Positions 1 through 24,532 of a stretch of DNA of 55,772 bases are shown in pieces (the first letter of the stretch is position 1; each line of letters starts with the position of its first letter). The notes beneath the pieces were generated by a model. The model ran no database searches. It was not told the DNA's origin and worked only from the letters and a program-made list of their open reading frames with translations. Origin of the DNA: an uncultured Candidatus Saccharibacteria bacterium (lineage in GTDB: Bacteria; Patescibacteriota; Minisyncoccia; Phycocordibacterales; Phycocordibacteraceae); contig CAZJZB010000005.1 in NCBI GenBank assembly GCA_964550425.1, positions 1-55,772 on the forward strand, written 5' to 3'. A program made the position numbers and the translations under genes.

Positions 1-3000
1 AGCGTTTGAATACAGGAGGCGGTTGGCGTTGATGGAGGAGAGGCCGGTGCCGCCGGAGGAGACCGGGAGCGCAGTGGTGAAGCTGGCGGATGCGGCAGAG
101 AGTGCGCCGCTAATGGAGGCAGTACCGGTAGCGGTGAGGTTCGCAAGAGATAGATTGCCGGAGAAGTATCCGTTGCCGTGCACCGAGAGGAGTGATGATG
201 GGCTCGTCGTCCCGATACCGACGTTGCCGCCGAGCGTGGCGAAGTACGCGGAGCCGGTAGAACCGATTTGTGTCGTGGAAGCATTGCCAAGCGTGGTGAG
301 ACCGGTGACGTTGAGGGTGGAGGTGGCGGTGAGTGCTCCGCCGAAGAAAGAGGAGCCGCTGGTGTAGAGGTTGCCTTGGACGGAGAGGAGTTGTGAAGGA
401 GAGGTGGTGCCGATGCCGACATTACCGCTTATTATCATATTCCCTGCGCCAGCATCTGTACCAACATAACTATTACCAAGCGATAAACCTCCCGTTGCAC
501 TTAAACGCATTCTCTCGTTTGTTGCTCCTACTCCATTTGTGGCGAAACGAATCGGATTAGAACCCAACGTAATCATGTTGAGACCGCCGACATCGGAAAT
601 CATGTATCCCTGATTAACTATAAGGCCATTGGTGTTTGTTGTTCCGCCTACACCAAATTCAACCCATCCAGTTCCAGCCAGACCACTGTCATTAAATGCG
701 CGATACCCTGCGGCCCCACTTGCGGAAGAATTTACTATTGCTGTGTATGAAGTTTCAGAGGCTTTAGACCCAGTGATTACCATTGGGATACTCACATTGC
801 TTGTGCTAATTGTTACCGTATTCTCAGTTTGGGAATTTTTTAATTCAAGAACCGAGTCCAGATTTCCGTTGCCTCTCCCGACTGCGAAAGCCAACTTTCC
901 ATTTACATTGTTAGAAGAAATGGAATCGACCACATATCGTATATCCGCAATATTTAAGAATTTAGAACCTTCATAAGCATTCGCACCGAACTCGCCCACA
1001 ATATCATTGGCCACCGATATTGTGGGGCTGGCCAGTGTCCCGCGAGAACCGAAAAGGGCCACATATGGGTAGACGGATGTCCCAGCCGTCTGCGCGTTCC
1101 AACCAGCAAAATTTGATTCTCTACGTATTATCGCGTCCATCGGGGCAGTCACATTGAACGTAGTAATTGGTGCCAAATTTGTACCGTTGCCCACAAGGAT
1201 AGCCGGAAGCGTGAGAGAGTCTCCAGCGTCCACCTGCAGTTTTGCCGCAGGACTCGTGGTGCCGATGCCGACGTTGCCGGTCGGATTGATGTAGAGCGAG
1301 CCAGCCGGAGCGCCCTGATTCACTGTGAAGGCGGTGTTGTGCGCGACGATACCGCCGAAGGCGTACTCGCCTTCGGCGGGAACTTGGAACTTGGAACTTA
1401 GTTCTTGGACGAGCCCCGATGCAAACTCGCGGAGAGAGCGCGTACCTGCCGCATCAAGGCGAGCGAGCGAGAGCGCAAGCTGTTGTACGAGTCCGTCTTC
1501 AACATCCCGAGATCTCTCGCGAGAGTCAGTGTCGTCAGCGTCTCGTTCAACGATCCGAGCGATATTGTCAAAAATCGCGCGAAGTCCGTCTTGCTCTGCC
1601 TGCCCTGCCCCTCCGCGATGTTGAGTGGTACCGAGAGAACCGCGCGACGCAATTGGCTTATTATTCCGAATTGCTCCGACTTCGGAAACGCCAAAGAAAC
1701 TTTGTATACATCTCGCGAGAGTGTCATCGCTTCCTGCCAAACGCGCAGCTTTTCGTAGTTTGGTTGCAAGTTCGCATCTTCGTTCATTGCTATCAGTGTA
1801 TTCCGCTAAGCTCCAAGCTCCAAGCTCCAAGCTCTGTCGCAGGACAACAAGCTCTTCCTGCTCGGACGTGAGCGCAGTATTCGTCCGAGCGTCTATATAA
1901 TGTCCTGCGATGAAATTATGCGTGCCCTCTATTTCAACGTCATAGACATCTTCTTCAGCGACCGATTCGACGGAAACGATGCGGTCCCAAATGCCGCCGC
2001 CGTCCGCGGCGGCGGCGATTTCCATACCCTCTTTCAGCTCCGATACTTTGAGCCAGGAACCCTCGCCTGCGCGGACGTTATCCACACCAGTTTTGGAGAT
2101 GCTTGACAGCCCAAGCAGGTCGGCTATACTCGTATTACCTTTCTTCAAGACCCGCCCGCGAGGCGGGTTTTGCGTTACCGCATCACCTCCTATCAGAAGG
2201 CCGGATATGAATTTATTAAACAGACCGAGCGTCACGAATTTGCCAGCGGCGAGCAAAAGTTCACCTGATAGATACTTGCGGTCAGAAACAACAGTGACGT
2301 TCTTGCCGAGTTCGCGCAGGTGTTTTACCAACGGCACAAAGTCGCCATCACCGGAGAAAAGTACGAAGTTGTCATACTCATCTGAAAACTTAAGCGCGTC
2401 AGTTGCAATTTCGACATCAAAATTCGCTTTTGGTTGAAGAAGCCGCACTCCTATCATATCGAGTCGCTTGGCCTCGCGCAAAAGATTTGTACGAAGATTA
2501 ACGGGCAACGCTTCAATCCAGCGACGATTGAAAGGCTTCTGAAGTAAACCGAGAAAACTGATATTAAAATACTGGACGGGTTTTGTAACAACCGTGTAGC
2601 CGAAGGAGGTAATCTTTGCGAAGAATGAAGATGATTTTTCGTTACGTATATCAGTACCGTAATAGAAACGAATCGCCGTAATACCAGCGGCAAAGAGCGT
2701 ATCATAGAGCACTTCCAGATCAATAGTTCGATAACCGCGATCGCGATACCCAGCTTTTATATTCGCAAAGTCGATAAATGCTACAGAACGCGAAAGGCCA
2801 CGAGCGATGCTCGTAGCCTCTCCGTAGGCAGGACGAGATGCGAATCCAGCAGCAACCAACTTTTTAAGCCGGCTCGCATCTCTTTCCCCGTACTGTCCTC
2901 CAGTTCCTGGTAGACCAGAGTGAGCGGATCCAGGGTTGCCTTCACCGCCGGGAACATCTACTGCAACACGCCGCGCCAGATACGGATGATTCGCCGTGGT

Positions 3001-5838
3001 GCGGATTGACTTCCCCGAGGCCGTGGTGAGTTTGTACGTCTGCTTTGTGCCCATGTATGCGAGACGCTTCACTTTTGACCACACAAGCTCACCTGTTTTT
3101 TCATCAAGCGATTGAATCTCGTCACTTTCTTTAATATTGATGATTTCAACTTCGTCATACACATACACATCATCAGCGAAATATGCACGACCGGCATGAT
3201 ACACTCTACGCAAGCCGGCAGCTCGGTGCGGGATCAGGTTTGTCACTCTGTGTCCCGAGGGTTCGATTCCCTCTGCCGGCTTGATTAGGTTATCCACAGG
3301 ACCATTTTGCGTACTTGACGTGGAAAACCAGTTTGCTATACTCCCTTTGACAAACCTGGTCCATCCGCCCGAGTGGGACATACGAGGGGAATCGCCATCC
3401 GCAAGGGTGGCGGTTTCCTTTTCCGCTCCGTCTTTCGGTTCTTCATAGAATTCCCAACCGGCGTCTTCAAGGTCCTTCTTGCTGCGACGCCGCCGCAACT
3501 TCGTATCCCCCGTCACGCACTGCCCCGCGACGAAGCCGCCGGCGAAGGTGCTGGTTGCCGTCGTGGATGTTGCAAAGAAATTCTGGGCGACAACTTGGCC
3601 CGCGACCGAGAGCAGTGAGTACGGACTCGTCGTCCCGATGCCGACGTTGCCTCCGGTGGTGGCGAGGTACGTATTCCCTGTTACAGTAAGTTGCGTTGTT
3701 GAAGCATTGCTATTGAATTGTTGAAGCGCGGTCCATGTGTTTGCATTGCCGAGATTGAGCGAGAGGGTTGTCGCTGAACCGCCCACGAGTGCGCCAAGAG
3801 AACCAGAAGAAGAGAGCGAGGAACCGACCGCGACGGATGAGGTGGCGACTGTAGAGAAGTTTCCATAATGAAGCTGGTCGCTTGTGAAAGACGTTTGGCC
3901 GGTGCCGCCGTTCCCAACCGCGAGCGTGCCGGTGATGTCTGTCCCGAGATTAACGAGAGCGGTTGCGACGCTTCCTGCGGTCGCTTTGAGGAAGCCGGAG
4001 AGGTTAGCAATGGATAGATTGGAGGTGAAGAGATTTGAGGATGAGGCGGTTGTTGCGAAAAAGTTGGTTGTGGTTGCGTTTGTGGTCGTGCTGTTGATCG
4101 CGAGGAGGTTCGGAAACGTATTGTTTGCCGTGGTGGTCGCGGTGAAGTATGCTGCCACCGTTTCGCCAACAACCGACAATTTTGCGTATGGCGAGGTAGT
4201 GCCGATGCCGACGTTGCTTTCGGAGGAAATGCTGAGTGTGGAGGTTGCGGTCAGAGTCGTGCCGACGTATGAAAGTGTCTGGCCTGCCGTACCGGAAGGA
4301 AGAGAGCCGGAGGAAAGACAAGTGCCGTTGACGGCGTAGCATTGGTTGGCGGGAATGTTGATGCCGTTGCCATAGAAGGTGGTGGTGCCGGTGGTGAAGT
4401 TGGCGATGCCTTCGATGGAGAGGAGTGAGCCGGGGGTGGTGGTGCCGATGCCGACAGAGCCGTTCTCAAGTACGGTGAAGAGTGTTGTTGAAGCGGAGTT
4501 TACGAAATTGACGAGTTTAGTTGAGCCAGTGCCAGCACCCCAGACGGTTAGTTTTGCATACGGGGTGGTAGTGCCAATGCCAAGATTGGTCCCATCAAAA
4601 ATCAAATTCGAGCTGTTGGCAAACCCTGAACCGTCAAAGTACTCGACACCGTTTGTCACCCCGCCGGTAGTAGTGCCCGTACCGCCATTTGCAATAGGGA
4701 GTGCTAAGCCGCTGTATGAGACAGTGAACGTACCCGCTGATGTGATAGGAGAGCCCGAGACAGAAAGGAATGAGGGGACCGATATTCCAGCGGAAGTAAT
4801 ACCTGTGCTGATACCGCCGCTAACAATGACGGCTCTGCCGCCGGTAGCAGAAATAATCGGGTGCTCCGGTGTGCCCGTAATAGAAATATTCGTACCGGCA
4901 GTGATTGAGTTAATGACGTTTGATGCGAACACGCGACCAGAGCCAGCGTTGATATCGGAATTGCCAGTGTCGATGCCTCCGAGTGTCTGTAGGCGGCCGC
5001 TGAACACCGAGAAACCGAGGGTCCGTAACGCGCCGCCAATCGCTACCGACCCCGCGTTGATATTGGAATTGCTCGTGTCGATGCCTCCGAGTGTCTGCAG
5101 GCGGCCGCTGAACACTGAAGATCCCGAAACTTGGAATGAGCCGTTAATCGCGACCGGGGTATTGATACTGAGGAGAGTGGTGCTTGACGCGTTTTGCGCA
5201 CTGTTGATTTTGTTCACCAAAGGTAACCCTGAGTTTTTTGTACTGGTTGCGGCGACTAATTTTGAATCTGCCGCGGGTGGCGGGGAAGATGTATTCTCGT
5301 TTCCTAATGATCGTACCAGAGCAAGAAGAGATGCGAATGCGGTCTTTACACCGTCGATAGCGGAGACGGAAGAATGTATCAAAAGGGTTGATGCCTCGGA
5401 TAGAATACTCGCAGCACTTTGTGTCGATGCACTTACTGAGATCCGTTCAGGAATTAAAAGTGATTGAACCGTACTATTGACCGTACTGAAGTTTGTTGAA
5501 ACGCTTGCGACAACAGCGACAACAGTGAGAGTCATCGCGATTCTACCAAGGGTTAAGAAAGGGTGTCGAGCACCCATATTCTGACTTGATCGATCACCTT
5601 GGTATTCTATTTTACGTTTTTTCGATAGATCCTCATTCAGATTCTTATTCTGATCCTCTTGCAAATCAATAAATTTCTTAAATGAGAGCTCATCAACATA
5701 CCAGGAATTTCCAATTTTTTCTCCATCTACTTTCCCAAAACGACACATCCTTGATATGTAGTCGTTTGTATATCCTACTCGCCGAGCAAGTTCTTTGGAT
5801 GAAACTAACTGACGATTTAAAAGATTTTTGTTTTTCAT
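1..5838 (-). CDS. Giant surface/fibre-like protein (3'-partial, at least 1946 aa): N-terminal HTH, TM segment, S/T/G-rich GNVGIGTT repeats, contains an intein
   Basis: ATG at 5838. Manual triplet check found no stop down to base 1. Starts MKNKNLLNRQLVSSKELARRVGYTNDYISRMCRFGKVDGEKIGNSWYV; hydrophobic LTLGRIAMTLTVVAVVASV; seven xxVGIGTTxP-type repeats. Missing from the ORF track because no stop lies in the window. Confidence 0.95.
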   Translation of the reverse strand, partial: MKNKNLLNRQLVSSKELARRVGYTNDYISRMCRFGKVDGEKIGNSWYVDELSFKKFIDLQEDQNKNLNEDLSKKRKIEYQGDRSSQNMGARHPFLTLGRIAMTLTVVAVVASVSTNFSTVNSTVQSLLIPERISVSASTQSAASILSEASTLLIHSSVSAIDGVKTAFASLLALVRSLGNENTSSPPPAADSKLVAATSTKNSGLPLVNKINSAQNASSTTLLSINTPVAINGSFQVSGSSVFSGRLQTLGGIDTSNSNINAGSVAIGGALRTLGFSVFSGRLQTLGGIDTGNSDINAGSGRVFASNVINSITAGTNISITGTPEHPIISATGGRAVIVSGGISTGITSAGISVPSFLSVSGSPITSAGTFTVSYSGLALPIANGGTGTTTGGVTNGVEYFDGSGFANSSNLIFDGTNLGIGTTTPYAKLTVWGAGTGSTKLVNFVNSASTTLFTVLENGSVGIGTTTPGSLLSIEGIANFTTGTTTFYGNGINIPANQCYAVNGTCLSSGSLPSGTAGQTLSYVGTTLTATSTLSISSESNVGIGTTSPYAKLSVVGETVAAYFTATTTANNTFPNLLAINSTTTNATTTNFFATTASSSNLFTSNLSIANLSGFLKATAGSVATALVNLGTDITGTLAVGNGGTGQTSFTSDQLHYGNFSTVATSSVAVGSSLSSSGSLGALVGGSATTLSLNLGNANTWTALQQFNSNASTTQLTVTGNTYLATTGGNVGIGTTSPYSLLSVAGQVVAQNFFATSTTATSTFAGGFVAGQCVTGDTKLRRRRSKKDLEDAGWEFYEEPKDGAEKETATLADGDSPRMSHSGGWTRFVKGSIANWFSTSSTQNGPVDNLIKPAEGIEPSGHRVTNLIPHRAAGLRRVYHAGRAYFADDVYVYDEVEIINIKESDEIQSLDEKTGELVWSKVKRLAYMGTKQTYKLTTASGKSIRTTANHPYLARRVAVDVPGGEGNPGSAHSGLPGTGGQYGERDASRLKKLVAAGFASRPAYGEATSIARGLSRSVAFIDFANIKAGYRDRGYRTIDLEVLYDTLFAAGITAIRFYYGTDIRNEKSSSFFAKITSFGYTVVTKPVQYFNISFLGLLQKPFNRRWIEALPVNLRTNLLREAKRLDMIGVRLLQPKANFDVEIATDALKFSDEYDNFVLFSGDGDFVPLVKHLRELGKNVTVVSDRKYLSGELLLAAGKFVTLGLFNKFISGLLIGGDAVTQNPPRGRVLKKGNTSIADLLGLSSISKTGVDNVRAGEGSWLKVSELKEGMEIAAAADGGGIWDRIVSVESVAEEDVYDVEIEGTHNFIAGHYIDARTNTALTSEQEELVVLRQSLELGAWSLAEYTDSNERRCELATKLRKAARLAGSDDTLARCIQSFFGVSEVGAIRNNKPIASRGSLGTTQHRGGAGQAEQDGLRAIFDNIARIVERDADDTDSRERSRDVEDGLVQQLALSLARLDAAGTRSLREFASGLVQELSSKFQVPAEGEYAFGGIVAHNTAFTVNQGAPAGSLYINPTGNVGIGTTSPAAKLQVDAGDSLTLPAILVGNGTNLAPITTFNVTAPMDAIIRRESNFAGWNAQTAGTSVYPYVALFGSRGTLASPTISVANDIVGEFGANAYEGSKFLNIADIRYVVDSISSNNVNGKLAFAVGRGNGNLDSVLELKNSQTENTVTISTSNVSIPMVITGSKASETSYTAIVNSSASGAAGYRAFNDSGLAGTGWVEFGVGGTTNTNGLIVNQGYMISDVGGLNMITLGSNPIRFATNGVGATNERMRLSATGGLSLGNSYVGTDAGAGNMIISGNVGIGTTSPSQLLSVQGNLYTSGSSFFGGALTATSTLNVTGLTTLGNASTTQIGSTGSAYFATLGGNVGIGTTSPSSLLSVHGNGYFSGNLSLANLTATGTASISGALSAASASFTTALPVSSGGTGLSSINANRLLYSNA
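1352..1379. repeat. 28-bp palindrome (REP-like), family member 1
   Basis: ccgccgaaggcg-tact-cgccttcggcgg, perfect 12-bp stem; similar element at 54069-54096. Confidence 0.8.
1379..1401. repeat. Heptamer tandem array (GGAACTT)x3+AG, downstream arm of the stem enclosing the four-helix gene
   Basis: ggaacttggaacttggaacttag; inverted relative to 1806-1828. Confidence 0.9.
1398..1787 (-). CDS. Four helix bundle protein (23S rRNA IVS protein / Avd-like family), nested out of frame inside the intein
   Basis: YEKLRVWQEAM..FPKSEQFGIISQLRRAVLSVPLNIAEGQGR..FLTISLGSLNET is the family signature; own ATG and TAA. Confidence 0.92.
   Translation of the reverse strand: MNEDANLQPNYEKLRVWQEAMTLSRDVYKVSLAFPKSEQFGIISQLRRAVLSVPLNIAEGQGRQSKTDFARFLTISLGSLNETLTTLTLARDLGMLKTDSYNSLRSRSLALMRQVRALSASLHRGSSKN
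1806..1834. repeat. Heptamer tandem array (AAGCTCC)x~4, upstream arm of the stem
   Basis: ctaagctccaagctccaagctccaagctc; reverse complement of 1806-1828 matches 1379-1401 at 20/23. Confidence 0.9.
2078..2130 (+). promoter_or_regulatory. DnaA-box-like 9-mer plus sigma70-type promoter, antisense inside the intein (module A)
   Basis: TTATCCACA(2078-2086)-N16-TTGACA(2103-2108)-N16-TATACT(2125-2130). Confidence 0.7.
2146..2172 (+). terminator. Terminator-like hairpin of module A
   Basis: caagacccgcc-cgcga-ggcgggttttg; the G-U pair and GCGA loop favour the + strand. Confidence 0.6.
2224..2784 (-). other. NYN (LabA/DUF88, PIN-like RNase) domain in frame within the intein
   Basis: VAFIDFANI...RFYYG...KANFDVEIATDAL...FVLFSGDGDFVPLVKHLRELGKNVTVVS; the acidic catalytic motifs are present. 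Confidence 0.9.
3211..3283 (+). ncRNA. tRNA-like structure (acceptor stem plus T-arm, reduced D-arm, GTC-containing loop)
   Basis: caagccggca/tgccggcttg 10-bp stem stacked on GAGGG-TTCGATT-CCCTC; CAGG-TTTGTCAC-TCTG arm; TGaTACACT extended -10-like motif at 3197-3205. Confidence 0.55.
3290..3342 (+). promoter_or_regulatory. DnaA-box-like 9-mer plus sigma70-type promoter, antisense inside the intein (module B)
   Basis: TTATCCACA(3290-3298)-N16-TTGACG(3315-3320)-N16-TATACT(3337-3342), with extended TG; same spacing as module A. Confidence 0.72.
3348..3422 (+). ncRNA. Putative ~75-nt small RNA
   Basis: Lies between promoter B and an intrinsic terminator; 5' end is estimated. Confidence 0.5.
3387..3422 (+). 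terminator. Intrinsic terminator of module B
   Basis: gggaatcgccatcc-GCAA-gggtggcggtttcc-tttt; 14-bp stem with three G-U pairs valid only on the + strand; GNRA loop. Confidence 0.75.
4946..5115. repeat. Intragenic direct repeat, ~62 bp x2, period 108 nt
   Basis: 4946-5007 vs 5054-5115; encodes VFSGRLQTLGGIDTxNSxINAG twice. Confidence 0.85.
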
Positions 5839-5869: not shown

Positions 5870-6308
5870 TATCAGTATTTTATAGTTCGTCTGTGTAAAA
5901 TGTAAGATAGTTGTGGATAATAATAAATAAACACTTAATTTCCTTTTGAGTAGCTATAAACTTGTTGGTATTTGTTTGATAGCTAACTGGAGTAGTAAGC
6001 ACGGTATGAAAGTTTGTAATCATGGATTTAAGTAATACTAATCGGATTAAGAAAATATAATGACCATACCTAAATATGCAATAATTAATATAGTAAGCCA
6101 TATCTCATCTTGCACATATCGTCTACACGAGATGAGATATCCATATAAACATTGATTAAAATTGTTTTTACTACTGATACGGATTTGATTCTTACTATTT
6201 TATAGATATTGTTATGAATTTTTGTCTCGCGGATTAAAACTGAACCTGCGCAACATTATAGAAAGACGAACTGTCTATATAATATCAGTATTTTATAGTT
6301 CGTCTGTG
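5870..6308. repeat. 26-bp perfect direct repeat at both ends of an AT-rich intergenic region
   Basis: tatcagtattttatagttcgtctgtg at 5870-5895 and 6283-6308; DnaA-box-like TGTGGATAA at 5912-5920; 11-bp inverted repeat 6100-6110/6130-6140. Confidence 0.85.
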
Positions 6309-13122: not shown

Positions 13123-13362
13123 ACAGGATATTCAAATCACCTATCATTTTACAGTATTTTTCTAAACAAACACTCTATCATTGTGTGGACAATGGTCCCA
13201 TTAAAATCTATGCGCGACAAAAGAATTAAGCGTATTAAATTTTCTGGATGTATCTCACTCAAGCGTCTTCCTAAAGAGTCCGTAAAGAAAATCCGCGGAT
13301 ACACGCTTCTGGTACTGAATATGCTGGATTGTAAAGACGAGACGAGAAACTCTGCAAATAAA

Positions 13363-20940: not shown

Positions 20941-21074
20941 GGTGGTTGCAAATTAGAAATTGTGGTTGATATGTCGACCCGTCTGTGCGCGAGGAAAATT
21001 TCTCATGCGCAAACGTTTCTACATATCATTATCGCGCGTAAAAAAACTTTGTGTGACAAAAAAATATAAAGTGT

Positions 21075-21124
21075 GGATAACTTTCATAAAAAATTCATCG
21101 ATGAATTTTTTATGAAAGTTATCC
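21075..21124. repeat. Perfect 50-bp palindrome with no spacer
   Basis: ggataactttcataaaaaattcatc/gatgaattttttatgaaagttatcc; overlaps the murB stop and a DnaA-box-like 9-mer (21072-21080). Confidence 0.9.
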
Positions 21125-24378: not shown

Positions 24379-24532
24379 GATGCGGTGATTATACCACACC
24401 CGATCATTAACACTCATTTCAAACGTATTCGGAGAACCGGCTGAGCAAAAGGGTATTGGACGAGATTATGATTGTTGTGAATAAAGCATATCAAGGAATC
24501 GCCCACGACTTTCAAGAAAGGAGGCCGGAAAA

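What the first reader, a model, noticed from the sequence alone, without database searches (positions are those of the whole stretch)
2137..2784. NYN RNase replaces the homing endonuclease and faces a tiny convergent RNA
Seen: a complete NYN/LabA domain (DFAN, DVE, SGDGDF) is in frame after block B. Just past its 3' end is an opposite-strand promoter and a ~35-nt hairpin transcript (2137-2172). Known: NYN domains are PIN-fold RNases. Inference: splicing would release an RNase-bearing intein (toxin, defence, or processing of the neighbouring RNA stems), with the small RNA as antitoxin or regulator. Alternatively, a captured stand-alone NYN gene brought its own 3' element along.
Basis: partly seen in the sequence, partly recalled or inferred. 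Interest (0 to 1): 0.75.

Follow-up and report, generated by a model that had tools for sequence, protein, structure and literature searches.

The report
NYN nuclease intein with antisense RNA
A self-splicing protein insert (intein) in a giant surface-protein gene of an ultrasmall groundwater bacterium carries a NYN nuclease where a homing endonuclease normally sits, together with a tiny backward-facing RNA gene that proves to be a conserved partner of such nuclease cassettes and of this whole intein family.

Summary
Observation confirmed and extended. Window 1336-3519 (-) is a 728-aa class-1 intein (CVTGDTKL...GGIVAHN|T) inside a >1,946-aa repeat surface protein. Its endonuclease slot holds an in-frame LabA-type NYN domain (Pfam E 8.8e-21; catalytic Asp/Glu kept). 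On the + strand, inside the last ~40 NYN-tail codons, lie a DnaA-box-like TTATCCACA, TTGACA-16-TATACT, a conserved AC start at 2137, a 7-bp GC hairpin and a U-tract: a predicted 35-40-nt RNA. This is not chance. The same unit is found in 17 of 17 inteins of this family with DNA (0 of 17 on the sense strand), whatever the cargo. It also lies at the 3' end of free-standing NYN genes (43 of 79 loci by a strict pattern). The hexamers are read in different frames, and the hairpins show compensatory changes and strand-specific G.U pairs. Free-standing NYN proteins 75-84% identical to the window's domain carry the same tail, so a complete "nuclease + convergent small RNA" cassette sits in the intein. 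No RNA data exist, and function is inferred. My best guess is a type-I-toxin-antitoxin-like, self-limiting selfish nuclease cassette. Rivals are a new kind of homing endonuclease, or an RNA unit that works independently of NYN. I found nothing in Rfam or in the papers searched. This scan noted similar loci twice before on other genomes.

The parts
1336..3519 (-). Class-1 intein, 728 aa (Cys774 ... Asn1501; +1 Thr1502 at 1333-1335), inside the 3'-open ORF 1..5838
   Evidence: Pfam Intein_splicing E 3.8e-12. NCBIfam intein_Nterm 26.6 bits and intein_Cterm 18.9 bits, both above cut-off. Motif coordinates. Clean homologues in L001 and L002.
3496..3519 (-). Block A, CVTGDTKL, followed by the poly-Arg run (RRRR, 3484-3495) typical of this intein family
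2977..2997 (-). Block B, TANHPYL (TxxH)
2786..2930 (-). Extra structured linker between block B and NYN, absent from L001 and L002. It may be the former 5' leader of the captured cassette (inference).
   Evidence: Sense-strand fold -67 kcal/mol, z -4.58, 0 of 200 shuffles. Comparison with the L001/L002 inteins.
2227..2778 (-). NYN (LabA-like) nuclease domain, in frame with the intein. It has a ~70-aa helical insert typical of this subfamily.
   Evidence: Pfam E 8.8e-21. Invariant D/E/SGDGD columns. The AF2 model of the L001 homologue matches 2qip and the MARF1 NYN domain.
2077..2200 (-). NYN tail (…GGDAVTQNPPRGRVLKKGNTSIADLLGLSSISKTGVDN), dual-use: the codons read on the + strand as hairpin, -10, -35 and box
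2078..2086 (+). TTATCCACA box (DnaA-box-like) 16 nt upstream of the -35 hexamer
   Evidence: 7 matches in the window against 1.45 expected. A box lies within 45 nt upstream of 15 of 21 antisense promoters in family inteins.
2103..2130 (+). Sigma-70-type promoter, TTGACA-16-TATACT
2137..2176 (+). Predicted small RNA: conserved AC start at 2137, 13-nt CU-rich tail (2137-2149), stem 2150-2156/2162-2168, loop CGCGA, U-tract from 2168
   Evidence: Fold. The AC is invariant in 8 of 8 aligned relatives. Hairpin 97.9% of cells paired, 2 pairs with double changes, 0 of 500 shuffles. No expression data.
1912..2070 (-). C-terminal splicing region up to block F (…SWLKVSELKEGMEIA…VYDVEIEGTHNF)
1379..1834 (-). 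Inserted element between blocks F and G. It is flanked by inverted repeats (GGAACTT x3 at 1381-1400; AGCTCCA x3 at 1810-1834). It carries a 23S_rRNA_IVP four-helix-bundle ORF (1398-1787) in another frame, while the intein frame stays open through it.
   Evidence: Pfam E 1.4e-35; sequence
1336..1356 (-). Block G, GGIVAHN
3195..3430 (+). Second antisense RNA cassette ('insertion 1'). Its parts are an extended -10 TGATACACT (3197-3205), a tRNA-like cloverleaf (3211-3283), a TTATCCACA box (3290-3298), the promoter TTGACG-16-TATACT (3315-3342), and a ~75-nt RNA with terminator (about 3349-3425). The 5' end of that RNA (TGACAAACCTG) is complementary to the tRNA-like loop (CAGGTTTGTCA).
   Evidence: The same cassette occurs in P0127 and in L169, L170, L181 and L183.

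Best explanation
SHOWN. Window 1336-3519 (-) encodes a genuine class-1 intein in a giant repeat-rich surface protein of a ~0.74-Mb Patescibacteria-type genome. The slot that normally holds a homing endonuclease contains a complete two-part cassette. One part is a LabA-type NYN nuclease domain read in frame with the intein. The other is written on the opposite strand into the last ~40 codons of the NYN tail: a box-promoter-hairpin-U-tract unit that would make a 35-40-nt RNA (2137-~2176, + strand). The same cassette (small nuclease gene plus convergent, strongly promoted small RNA whose end overlaps the gene's 3' end) exists free-standing in many Patescibacteria metagenome contigs. It lies at unrelated loci, for example between trpB and trpA, and inside restriction-modification gene groups. 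An antisense promoter-RNA-terminator unit is a constant part of this intein family.

INFERRED mechanism (my commitment, about 0.4). The cassette is a selfish, self-limiting nuclease module that works like a type I toxin-antitoxin pair. The abundant, short-lived antisense RNA pairs with the 3' end of the NYN-coding message, here the host mRNA. It holds down production or activity of the nuclease, which protein splicing would release as a free NYN-bearing intein. Loss of the locus or a fall in RNA synthesis would unleash the nuclease, giving addiction or abortive-infection-like behaviour. The intein offers the cassette an in-frame home that is harmless to the host protein.
For: Intein:
- All splicing residues are present, and the family models score above cut-off.
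- The 728-codon frame stays open through three inserted elements.

NYN:
- Pfam E 8.8e-21, with the catalytic columns invariant across 42 embedded and free-standing sequences.
- The AF2 model of the clean homologue L001 has pLDDT 85.9. It matches the LabA-like 2qip (TMt 0.78), the MARF1 NYN RNase (0.64-0.67) and DnaB mini-inteins.

RNA unit conserved at nucleotide level:
- The window, L001 and L002 keep box, TTGACA, 16 nt, TATA[CG]T, ~19 nt and hairpin, while the peptide over the hairpin differs: QNPPRGRV, PTPAHEERV, AKPARRQV.
- The -35 hexamer is read in two different frames, 14 against 7.
- The hairpin has compensatory changes, and its U.G pairs are possible only on the RNA strand.
- 17 of 17 family inteins with DNA have the antisense promoter and 0 of 17 have a sense-strand one; 16 of 17 have a terminator-like hairpin within 120 nt.

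Free-standing cassettes:
- 43 of 79 NYN loci have a strict-pattern convergent promoter at the gene's 3' end. L086 has one with TATAAA that the pattern missed.
- The commonest RNA type has 16 predicted pairs, 9 with compensatory changes, and an invariant G.U closing pair.
- There is no conserved synteny, and cassettes are frequent next to R-M genes. L118 holds four nuclease genes in tandem, each followed by a convergent promoter.

Type-I-like geometry:
- The genes are convergent with a 3' overlap, and the RNA has a near-consensus promoter.
- The NYN stop codon lies inside the RNA gene in L156.

Exchange between states:
- Free-standing proteins are 75-84% identical to the window's NYN domain.
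- Embedded and free forms interleave on the tree: 7 changes, and starred branches force at least 3.
Against: - No transcript has been seen. No RNA run holds the stretch.
- No toxicity or binding data exist.
- Classical type I toxins are small membrane peptides, not 230-aa nucleases.
- The antisense unit also occurs in family inteins with no recognisable nuclease, for example L169, L170, L181 and L183, whose only cargo is RNA genes. It therefore cannot be only an antitoxin for NYN.
- The RNA shows no better pairing with its own NYN 5' region than with those of other loci: own mean -26.2 against -25.7 kcal/mol. Any control must act through the short 3' overlap or through protein binding.
- Pairing with the host mRNA would also cost the host its surface protein.
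- Linked inheritance, rather than functional coupling, could explain why RNA types track nuclease subfamilies.
Confidence: 0.4

Rival explanations
1. The NYN domain, and the RNase-H-like 'EIDQS' cargo of sister inteins, is the family's homing endonuclease, a DNA-cutting enzyme of a new class. It drives intein spread among the repeated 'Q|T-x-x-V-T-N-G-G-N-V-G-I-G-T-T' sites of giant surface-protein genes. It would also drive insertion of the free-standing cassettes between genes. The antisense RNA only throttles its expression.
For: - The domain sits exactly in the endonuclease slot.
- No LAGLIDADG, HNH or GIY-YIG domain was found in 15 family proteins scanned or in the window's intein.
- Single giant proteins hold 2-5 matched stretches, i.e. 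intein copies, all at the same repeat position.
- Distribution is sporadic: the family is in 19 of 400 other genomes of the class, this NYN subfamily is in 1 of 400, and it is absent from two genomes of the same genus.
- Two unrelated nuclease folds occupy the same slot.
- Free-standing cassettes sit between conserved genes, as free-standing homing endonuclease genes do; the example is trpB|trpA in L156.
- The active site is conserved in the embedded copies.
Against: - The nearest characterised relatives (MARF1) are RNases (activity recalled).
- Many family inteins carry no recognisable nuclease and still persist.
- No DNA-binding module was identified.
- Spread among repeats of one gene could happen by ordinary gene conversion.
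Confidence: 0.25
2. The antisense promoter-RNA-terminator unit is the primary, autonomous element, and NYN is one of several interchangeable passengers. The unit might be a trans-acting regulatory RNA gene, a recombination handle for cargo swapping, or a strong convergent promoter that stimulates transcription-associated recombination.
For: - It is present in 17 of 17 family inteins whatever the cargo, at a fixed place about 185 nt from the intein's C-end in most.
- It occurs without any protein cargo in L169, L170, L181 and L183, and in the mini-intein of P0151.
- The second cassette in this same intein (3195-3430) pairs with its own tRNA-like partner, and the pairing covaries over five loci. 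RNA-RNA functions without NYN therefore exist.
- At least six different RNA types use the same promoter architecture.
Against: - RNA types track nuclease subfamilies. One type accompanies related EIDQS genes in L118 and L186, and the short type accompanies the long NYN subfamily in 9 loci.
- The unit is always convergent and abuts or overlaps the nuclease gene's 3' end, which suggests coupling.
- No trans target was found for the window's 13-nt tail.
Confidence: 0.22
3. The small RNA is a guide or cofactor that gives the small nuclease its target specificity, making a minimal RNA-guided nuclease.
For: - The RNA is built as a 5' single-stranded tail plus a hairpin and terminator.
- A nuclease gene and an RNA gene are inherited together.
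- The EIDQS cargo model gives a weak top fold match to IsrB with its omega RNA (E 3e-3).
Against: - The tail is conserved across loci and is fixed by being antisense to the NYN tail.
- The longest complementarity to the extein flanks is 6 nt; 87% of shuffled tails do as well.
- There is no consistent partner within 1.2-1.5 kb on the same strand.
- The proteins (150-250 aa) are far smaller than known RNA-guided nucleases (recalled).
Confidence: 0.06
4. Chance promoter-like and hairpin-like sequence inside a coding region, with no function.
For: Promoter and terminator scans as a whole are not enriched in this 6.5-kb region: 8 found against 7.1 expected, and 3 against 6.2. No transcript data exist.
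Against:: recurrence in 17 of 17 inteins on one strand only, conservation that is independent of reading frame, and compensatory changes.
Confidence: 0.02

Closest known systems
Class-1 inteins of the DnaB/DnaX mini-intein type, and large inteins with LAGLIDADG or HNH homing endonucleases
   Same: Cys1, TxxH, penultimate His-Asn and +1 Thr. Hint fold: the model of the homologue L001 matches Npu and Ssp DnaB inteins at 26-31% identity over 83 columns. The extra domain is inserted between blocks B and F.
   Different: The host is a non-housekeeping, repeat-rich surface protein with several copies per gene. A poly-Arg run follows block A. The cargo is a NYN nuclease (in sister inteins an RNase-H-like domain or RNA genes), not a known homing-endonuclease family. 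An antisense RNA gene is embedded in the open frame. A second permissive site lies between blocks F and G.
LabA-like / MARF1-type NYN nucleases (PF01936; PDB 2qip, 5yaa, 6fdl)
   Same: Fold and acidic active-site residues.
   Different: A ~70-aa helical insert and a conserved C-terminal tail that doubles as an antisense RNA gene. The domain is embedded in an intein or carried on a mobile-looking cassette. The substrate is unknown.
Type I toxin-antitoxin loci with convergent, 3'-overlapping genes (txpA/RatA and bsrG/SR4 of Bacillus subtilis, recalled) and with nuclease toxins (RalR/RalA; abstract seen in the listing, PMC4041452)
   Same: A protein gene faces a small, strongly promoted antisense RNA that overlaps its 3' end. 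The loci are multi-copy, patchy and sit in variable contexts.
   Different: The candidate toxin is a 170-250-aa NYN or RNase-H-like nuclease, not a small membrane peptide. The overlap is only ~35-60 nt. No toxicity has been shown. Here the 'toxin' is translated as part of a host protein and freed by protein splicing.
Free-standing homing endonuclease genes of phages (recalled)
   Same: Small nuclease genes wedged between conserved genes (trpB|trpA in L156), with sporadic distribution.
   Different: A different nuclease fold, a companion RNA gene, and a bacterial chromosomal setting.
Type III toxin-antitoxin systems (ToxIN) and OMEGA nucleases (IscB/IsrB/TnpB) (recalled)
   Same: A nuclease is inherited together with a dedicated small RNA.
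   Different: In those systems the RNA is co-directional (upstream repeats, or overlapping the 3' end in sense). Here it is convergent, is not repeated, and shows no guide-like variable segment.

Membership tests
Intein (class 1, Hint fold) | N-terminal Cys/Ser nucleophile | tested here: met
   Cys774 in CVTGDTKL, 3517-3519
Intein (class 1, Hint fold) | Block B TxxH | tested here: met
   T-A-N-H in TANHPYL, 2977-2997
Intein (class 1, Hint fold) | C-terminal His-Asn followed by a Cys/Ser/Thr +1 residue | tested here: met
   GGIVAHN|T, 1333-1356
Intein (class 1, Hint fold) | Match to family profiles and Hint fold | tested here: met
   Pfam Intein_splicing 46.7 bits against cut-off 35.8. NCBIfam intein_Nterm 26.6 against 24.5 and intein_Cterm 18.9 against 15.6. 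The fold was tested on the homologue L001, not on the window's own longer intein.
Intein (class 1, Hint fold) | Protein splicing activity; existence of an intein-less allele | not testable with these tools
   Exteins on both sides carry the same GNVGIGTTSP repeats. No bridging contig with a trustworthy joint was found.
NYN / LabA-like nuclease (PF01936) | Profile match above the gathering score | tested here: met
   75.4 bits against 24.2
NYN / LabA-like nuclease (PF01936) | Conserved acidic active-site residues (IDxAN, DVE..D, SGDGD) | tested here: met
   Invariant or nearly invariant columns in A1, A2 and A3
NYN / LabA-like nuclease (PF01936) | PIN-like fold | tested here: met
   Model of the L001 homologue: 2qip TMt 0.78, MARF1 0.64-0.67
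NYN / LabA-like nuclease (PF01936) | Nuclease activity and substrate | not testable with these tools
   -
Known homing endonuclease families (LAGLIDADG, HNH, GIY-YIG, His-Cys box, PD-(D/E)xK, Vsr-like) | Presence of one of these domains in the intein | tested here: not met
   Pfam finds only NYN and Intein_splicing in the ORF. 15 family proteins show none either.
Type I toxin-antitoxin | Antisense RNA gene overlapping the toxin gene | tested here: met
   Met by geometry only. The predicted RNA 2137-2176 (+) lies inside the NYN tail codons. In L156 the stop codon lies inside the RNA gene.
Type I toxin-antitoxin | Small (<60 aa) hydrophobic toxin | tested here: not met
   The candidate toxin is a ~230-aa soluble nuclease domain
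Type I toxin-antitoxin | Toxicity neutralised by the RNA | not testable with these tools
   -
Bacterial sigma-70 promoter plus intrinsic terminator (small RNA gene) | -35 and -10 hexamers at 16-18 nt, then a GC hairpin and U-tract, conserved in relatives on one strand | tested here: met
Bacterial sigma-70 promoter plus intrinsic terminator (small RNA gene) | Observed transcript | tested here: inconclusive
   No RNA holder was listed; only contigs were laid
Any Rfam family | Covariance-model match | tested here: not met
   The window gives 0 hits at gathering score. 18 cassette loci searched at E<=1 gave three chance-level hits, none on the RNAs.
RNA-guided nuclease (OMEGA/CRISPR-like) | A guide segment complementary to a target at or near the insertion site | tested here: not met

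The most novel reading that the evidence does not exclude
Patescibacteria carry a hitherto undescribed class of minimal mobile cassettes: a 150-250-aa nuclease (NYN or RNase-H-like) plus a dedicated convergent small RNA. In this reading the cassettes serve as the homing machinery of a large intein family that lacks endonucleases and lives in giant surface-protein genes. That would make them a new class of homing endonuclease whose activity is licensed or restrained by its own antisense RNA. The intein reading frame would be evolved to encode RNA genes on its opposite strand.
Probability: 0.17. Interest if true: 0.9.

Novelty: new variant of a known kind. Interest (0 to 1): 0.77.

Why it matters
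Inteins are textbook selfish elements whose mobility is ascribed to a handful of homing-endonuclease families. Here a large intein family (292 cluster representatives at E<=1e-10) carries none of them. Instead it carries NYN or RNase-H-like nucleases, and it always carries an RNA gene written backwards through an open reading frame. Three things would follow if the functional reading holds.
1. It would give a testable case of dual coding: a protein on one strand and a promoter, RNA and terminator on the other, kept under selection over deep divergence.
2. It would define a new, compact nuclease-plus-RNA module in the least understood bacterial radiation, with possible roles in addiction, defence or homing.
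3. It would supply several new structured small-RNA families that are absent from Rfam.

If the nuclease proves to be a site-specific DNA enzyme or an RNA-controlled RNase, it would also be of practical interest.

Tried and rejected
- Expression: the look-up of sequencing runs listed no RNA holder. Read laying on X1-X4 used contigs only. X1 is the probable source of the window. X3, guessed to be RNA, holds 150 nt of the NYN region with one difference, which says nothing on transcription. The joints 1399->1808/1813 have sides of only ~21 nt and are not trustworthy.
- Known RNA families: Rfam found none in the window or on 18 cassette loci. ARAGORN found no tRNA or tmRNA in the window or in 8 loci with tRNA-like elements.
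- Does the small RNA pair with the 5' region of its own NYN mRNA? There is no signal over 28 loci: own mean -26.2 against -25.7 kcal/mol for other loci.
- Does the window-type RNA tail have a nearby same-strand partner, like the tRNA-like partner of the second cassette? No consistent site was found in 8 loci.
- Is the tail complementary to the extein flanks (guide hypothesis)? The longest match is 6 nt, and 87% of shuffled tails do as well.
- Is the module attached to every NYN gene? No. The genome's second, housekeeping-type NYN (171 aa, next to rpsO) has none. L087-L089, which have truncated or replaced C-termini, have none. 36 of 79 loci did not match the strict pattern, and some of these are misses of the pattern, like L086.
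- Defence-system libraries: PADLOC gives only generic hits, NYN (PDLC01154) and a weak HEC-09. NCBIfam gives only sub-threshold TIGR00288 hits.
- Literature: 'intein'+'NYN domain' gave 0 papers. 'inteins'+'Patescibacteria'+'homing endonuclease' gave 0. 'intein'+'NYN' as whole words gave 24, of which the 15 listed were all about Cas9 NYN PAMs. 'intein'+'candidate phyla radiation' gave 6, none relevant; passages of PMC11270868 were read and it has no NYN. 'NYN domain'/'antitoxin'/'small RNA' gave nothing on such a pair among the 15 papers listed of 1,612. 'NYN domain'+'homing endonuclease' gave 2 papers, listing only. 'Patescibacteria'+'antisense RNA'+'toxin-antitoxin' gave 1 paper, a plasmid review, listing only. 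PMC3482391 has no 'NYN' or 'intein' in the 300,000 characters held. Subscription journals and supplements were not searched.
Full report
WHAT IS THERE. The minus strand of window 1-5838 is one open frame of at least 1,946 codons. It is cut by the contig end, because the window is the start of contig C5 of a 738-kb, 28-contig genome. It encodes a repeat-rich surface protein (GNVGIGTTSP repeats). Residues 774-1501 (window 1336-3519) are an intein. The hallmarks are CVTGDTKL at the start, TANHPYL (block B), VYDVEIEGTHNF (block F), and GGIVAHN followed by Thr. Pfam Intein_splicing gives E 3.8e-12, and both NCBIfam intein end models score above cut-off. Between blocks B and F lies a NYN domain (PF01936, E 8.8e-21, window 2227-2778), with IDFAN, FDVEIATD and SGDGDF in place. 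No known homing-endonuclease domain is present.

THE OPPOSITE-STRAND UNIT. On the + strand the NYN tail codons read as follows:
- TTATCCACA (2078-2086)
- TTGACA (2103-2108), 16 nt, TATACT (2125-2130)
- six bases, then ACCTTTCTTCAAG (2137-2149)
- the hairpin ACCCGCC-CGCGA-GGCGGGT (2150-2168)
- TTTTGCGTT

This is the best promoter match in 6.5 kb (11 of 12). The second best (3315-3342) lies in the same intein on the same strand. The pattern TTGACR-N16-TATAST occurs only at these two places in 55.8 kb (expected 0.01). A strict promoter pattern occurs only 12 times in the whole genome. The hairpin folds better as + strand RNA (-18.6 kcal/mol, z -3.6) than as - strand RNA (-16.5, z -2.2).

IT IS CONSERVED AS NUCLEIC ACID, NOT AS PEPTIDE. 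Two Patescibacteria MAG contigs (L001, L002) hold the same kind of host protein with a 'clean' intein of ~400 aa, made of the splicing domains, NYN and tail, without the window's extra inserts. All three loci keep box, TTGACA, 16 nt, TATA[CG]T, about 19 nt, hairpin and T-run on the antisense strand. The peptide over the hairpin differs between them, and the stems change in a compensatory way: ACCCGCC/GGCGGGT, ACCCGCTC/GAGCGGGT, ACCTGCC/GGCAGGT. Eight relatives were aligned. The hexamers and the AC at the predicted start are invariant. 97.9% of stem cells pair, two pairs show double changes, and no shuffle or slid register comes close. L083 has two U.G pairs that would be C.A mismatches on the mRNA strand.

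I then gathered every complete intein of this family for which I hold DNA, 17 distinct ones including the window's. An antisense promoter is present in 17 of 17, a sense-strand one in 0 of 17, and a terminator-like hairpin follows within 120 nt in 16 of 17. The -35 hexamer is read as Leu-Ser in 14 cases and in another frame (Val-Lys or Val-Asn) in 7. The TT[AG]T[CT]CA[CT]A box lies within 45 nt upstream of 15 of 21 promoters, at variable spacing. Conservation that ignores the reading frame means selection on the DNA or RNA.

THE SAME UNIT BELONGS TO FREE-STANDING NUCLEASE GENES. A search with the NYN segment found 106 proteins of 127-405 aa. The best five are 240-255 aa and 75-84% identical. 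They begin with Met just before the first strand and share the tail …QNPPxGRVLKKGxxSIADLLGLSS..VDN, ending a few residues later. Among 79 metagenome loci encoding NYN relatives, 43 have a strict-pattern promoter on the opposite strand within -200..+400 nt of the end of the NYN match. L086 has one that the pattern missed. Each promoter is followed by a small RNA with a terminator that abuts or overlaps the NYN stop codon.

Several RNA types occur. The commonest (13 sequences) has 16 predicted pairs, 9 of them with compensatory changes, and an invariant G.U closing pair that fixes the strand. None is in Rfam. The cassettes have no conserved neighbours. They lie between trpB and trpA (L156), between a methylase and MetRS (L097), and often among restriction-modification genes (L091, L100, L113, L123, L136, L143, L144, L157, L158). 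They also lie beside an IVP gene (L092) and a GIY-YIG gene (L143), and in tandem (L109). L118 has four small nuclease genes in a row (two NYN, two 'IDQS'), each followed by a convergent promoter. On a tree of the NYN core, intein-embedded and free-standing forms interleave: 7 changes of state, with at least 3 forced by well-supported branches. The window's domain nests among free-standing P0001-P0005. One caveat applies. For most 'free-standing' proteins I have no DNA, so some could be mis-called fragments. L081, L085 and L086 are verified in DNA.

THE INTEIN FAMILY. The 82-residue N-part of the L001 intein finds 663 cluster representatives (292 at E<=1e-10), mostly giant proteins with up to five matched stretches. 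Among 149 of these proteins, a simple pattern delimits 88 complete inteins. 33 of them hit a NYN profile; this is an undercount, because the short NYN subfamily is missed. About 15 carry a recurrent 'F-E-V-D-Q-S … I-G-K-K-S-P-A-H' domain, and the rest carry other or no recognisable cargo. Pfam sees no classical endonuclease in 15 of the proteins.

The EIDQS cargo folds with pLDDT 91.3. It gives only weak, consistent matches to RNase H-like folds (best E 3e-3; RNase HI/HII/H3 and the IsrB RuvC domain; none at E<=1e-3). Its invariant D, E, D and H fit that reading. It too exists free-standing with a convergent promoter and RNA (L176, which is nearly identical to L177, and L186). In 400 other genomes of the class, the intein family occurs in 19 and this NYN subfamily in 1. 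Two genomes of the same genus have neither. This distribution is sporadic, as expected of mobile elements.

THE WINDOW'S INTEIN IS UNUSUALLY LOADED. Besides the NYN cassette it holds three further elements.
- A second antisense cassette (3195-3430). It consists of an extended -10, a tRNA-like cloverleaf, a box, a promoter and a ~75-nt RNA. The 5' end of that RNA is complementary to the tRNA-like loop, and the pairing covaries in L169, L170, L181, L183 and the window. The same insert is seen in P0127.
- A structured ~145-nt linker before NYN.
- An inverted-repeat-flanked element with a 23S_rRNA_IVP gene in another frame, between blocks F and G.

The 728-codon frame is open through all of these, which argues that the intein must still be translated.

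HOW IT MOST LIKELY WORKS. What is shown: the anatomy, its conservation, the strand of the RNA, the nuclease fold and its intact active site, and the exchange between free and embedded states. What is inferred: function. The geometry is a protein gene facing a short RNA gene with a near-consensus promoter that overlaps its 3' end. The copies are multi-copy and patchy, often near defence genes. This is the geometry of type I toxin-antitoxin loci of the convergent kind, with a nuclease in place of a membrane peptide. I therefore favour (about 0.4) a self-limiting selfish nuclease module in which the RNA restrains the nuclease. The intein would merely provide an in-frame harbour, and splicing would release the nuclease-bearing intein.

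Against this reading, the RNA unit also occurs in inteins without a nuclease, and no trans or 5' pairing was found. The main rivals are these:
- The nucleases are a new kind of homing endonuclease (0.25). Support comes from the slot, the lack of any other endonuclease, and two different nuclease folds in the same place.
- The RNA unit is the autonomous core and NYN is a passenger (0.22).
- A guide-RNA role is unlikely (0.06).
- Chance is excluded in practice.

NOVELTY. Inteins, NYN nucleases and antisense-RNA-controlled toxins are each known. I found three things neither in Rfam nor in the papers searched: the combination of the three, the rule that this intein family always encodes an RNA gene on its opposite strand, and the nuclease-plus-convergent-RNA cassettes themselves. 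Two earlier notes of this scan on other genomes describe the same kind of thing, so this is a recurrence and not a first sighting within the scan. One describes three inteins with NYN, unknown and antisense tRNA-like cargo. The other describes a NYN gene whose conserved tail holds a backward-facing promoter and terminator. I read both only after my own analysis had reached the same points.

Noticed in passing
window 3195-3430 (+); also L169, L170, L181, L183 and protein P0127: A second antisense cassette in the same intein. It has an extended -10 (TGATACACT), a tRNA-like cloverleaf (3211-3283; not called by ARAGORN), a TTATCCACA box, the promoter TTGACG-16-TATACT, and a ~75-nt RNA with terminator. 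The RNA's 5' end is complementary to the loop of the tRNA-like 'anticodon arm'. The pairing covaries across five loci, for example GGTTGACAAGCCGG/CCGGCTTGTCAACC and GCTGTCAAGACAGAG/CTCTGTCTTGACAGC. In four short inteins this RNA pair is the only cargo.
   Followed up: partly
window 1379-1834 (-): An element flanked by inverted triple repeats (GGAACTT x3 / AGCTCCA x3). It encodes a 23S_rRNA_IVP four-helix-bundle protein (1398-1787, Pfam E 1.4e-35) in a frame other than the intein's, and is inserted between intein blocks F and G. The same site carries shorter extensions (AGHY[VI]N.KTG..LT.EEQE…GGI[IV]AHN) in L083, P0141 and P0176.
   Followed up: partly
window 5912-5920(-), 13184-13192(-), 21072-21080(-), 24476-24484(-): DnaA-box-like TT[AG]T[CT]CACA motifs lie in intergenic regions upstream of ordinary genes, on the gene's strand (7 in the window against 1.45 expected). 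The box may be a general promoter-proximal element in this organism rather than an origin feature.
   Followed up: partly
window 2786-2930 (-): A ~145-nt stretch between block B and NYN, absent from L001 and L002, folds strongly on the sense strand (-67 kcal/mol, z -4.6). It may be the former 5' leader of the captured cassette.
   Followed up: no
L176/L177 1522-1992, L186, L118 1124-2283, L167 intein; proteins P0205, P0243 and others: A ~155-aa 'EIDQS…IDxEYxGYE…IGKKSxAH' protein family has no Pfam match. The AF2 model has pLDDT 91.3 and gives weak matches to RNase H-like folds. The family occurs both as intein cargo and as free-standing genes with their own convergent promoter and small RNA.
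   Followed up: partly
L118 1-4016: A tandem array of four small nuclease genes (two EIDQS, two NYN) plus a fifth unit. Each is followed by a near-identical ~70-nt repeat containing a convergent TTGACA-17-TATAnT promoter and a different small RNA.
   Followed up: partly
L156 2553-3464: A NYN-plus-small-RNA cassette sits exactly between trpB and trpA. The NYN stop codon lies inside the small-RNA gene.
   Followed up: partly
all inteins of the family (e.g. window 3484-3495): A run of 4-7 Arg/Lys immediately after block A (CVTGDT[KR]L-RRRRR…) is a family hallmark. Its function is unknown.
   Followed up: no
G000 C1:36218-36418 region (L161 1234-1749): A second, housekeeping-type 171-aa NYN gene lies next to rpsO in the same genome. 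It has no convergent promoter or RNA.
   Followed up: yes
G000 C6:46795(-) and C28:829(-): Two further strong promoters in this genome are each followed at once by a hairpin and U-tract. One lies upstream of nusG-rplK and may be a leader or attenuator rather than a small-RNA gene.
   Followed up: partly
L082 (= L166/L172/L190) and L083: Single giant genes hold two NYN inteins each, with different NYN subfamilies (short ~170 aa and long ~230 aa), at the same repeat position. The host proteins end in a Peptidase_S74-like chaperone region (Pfam hit seen in P0151).
   Followed up: partly
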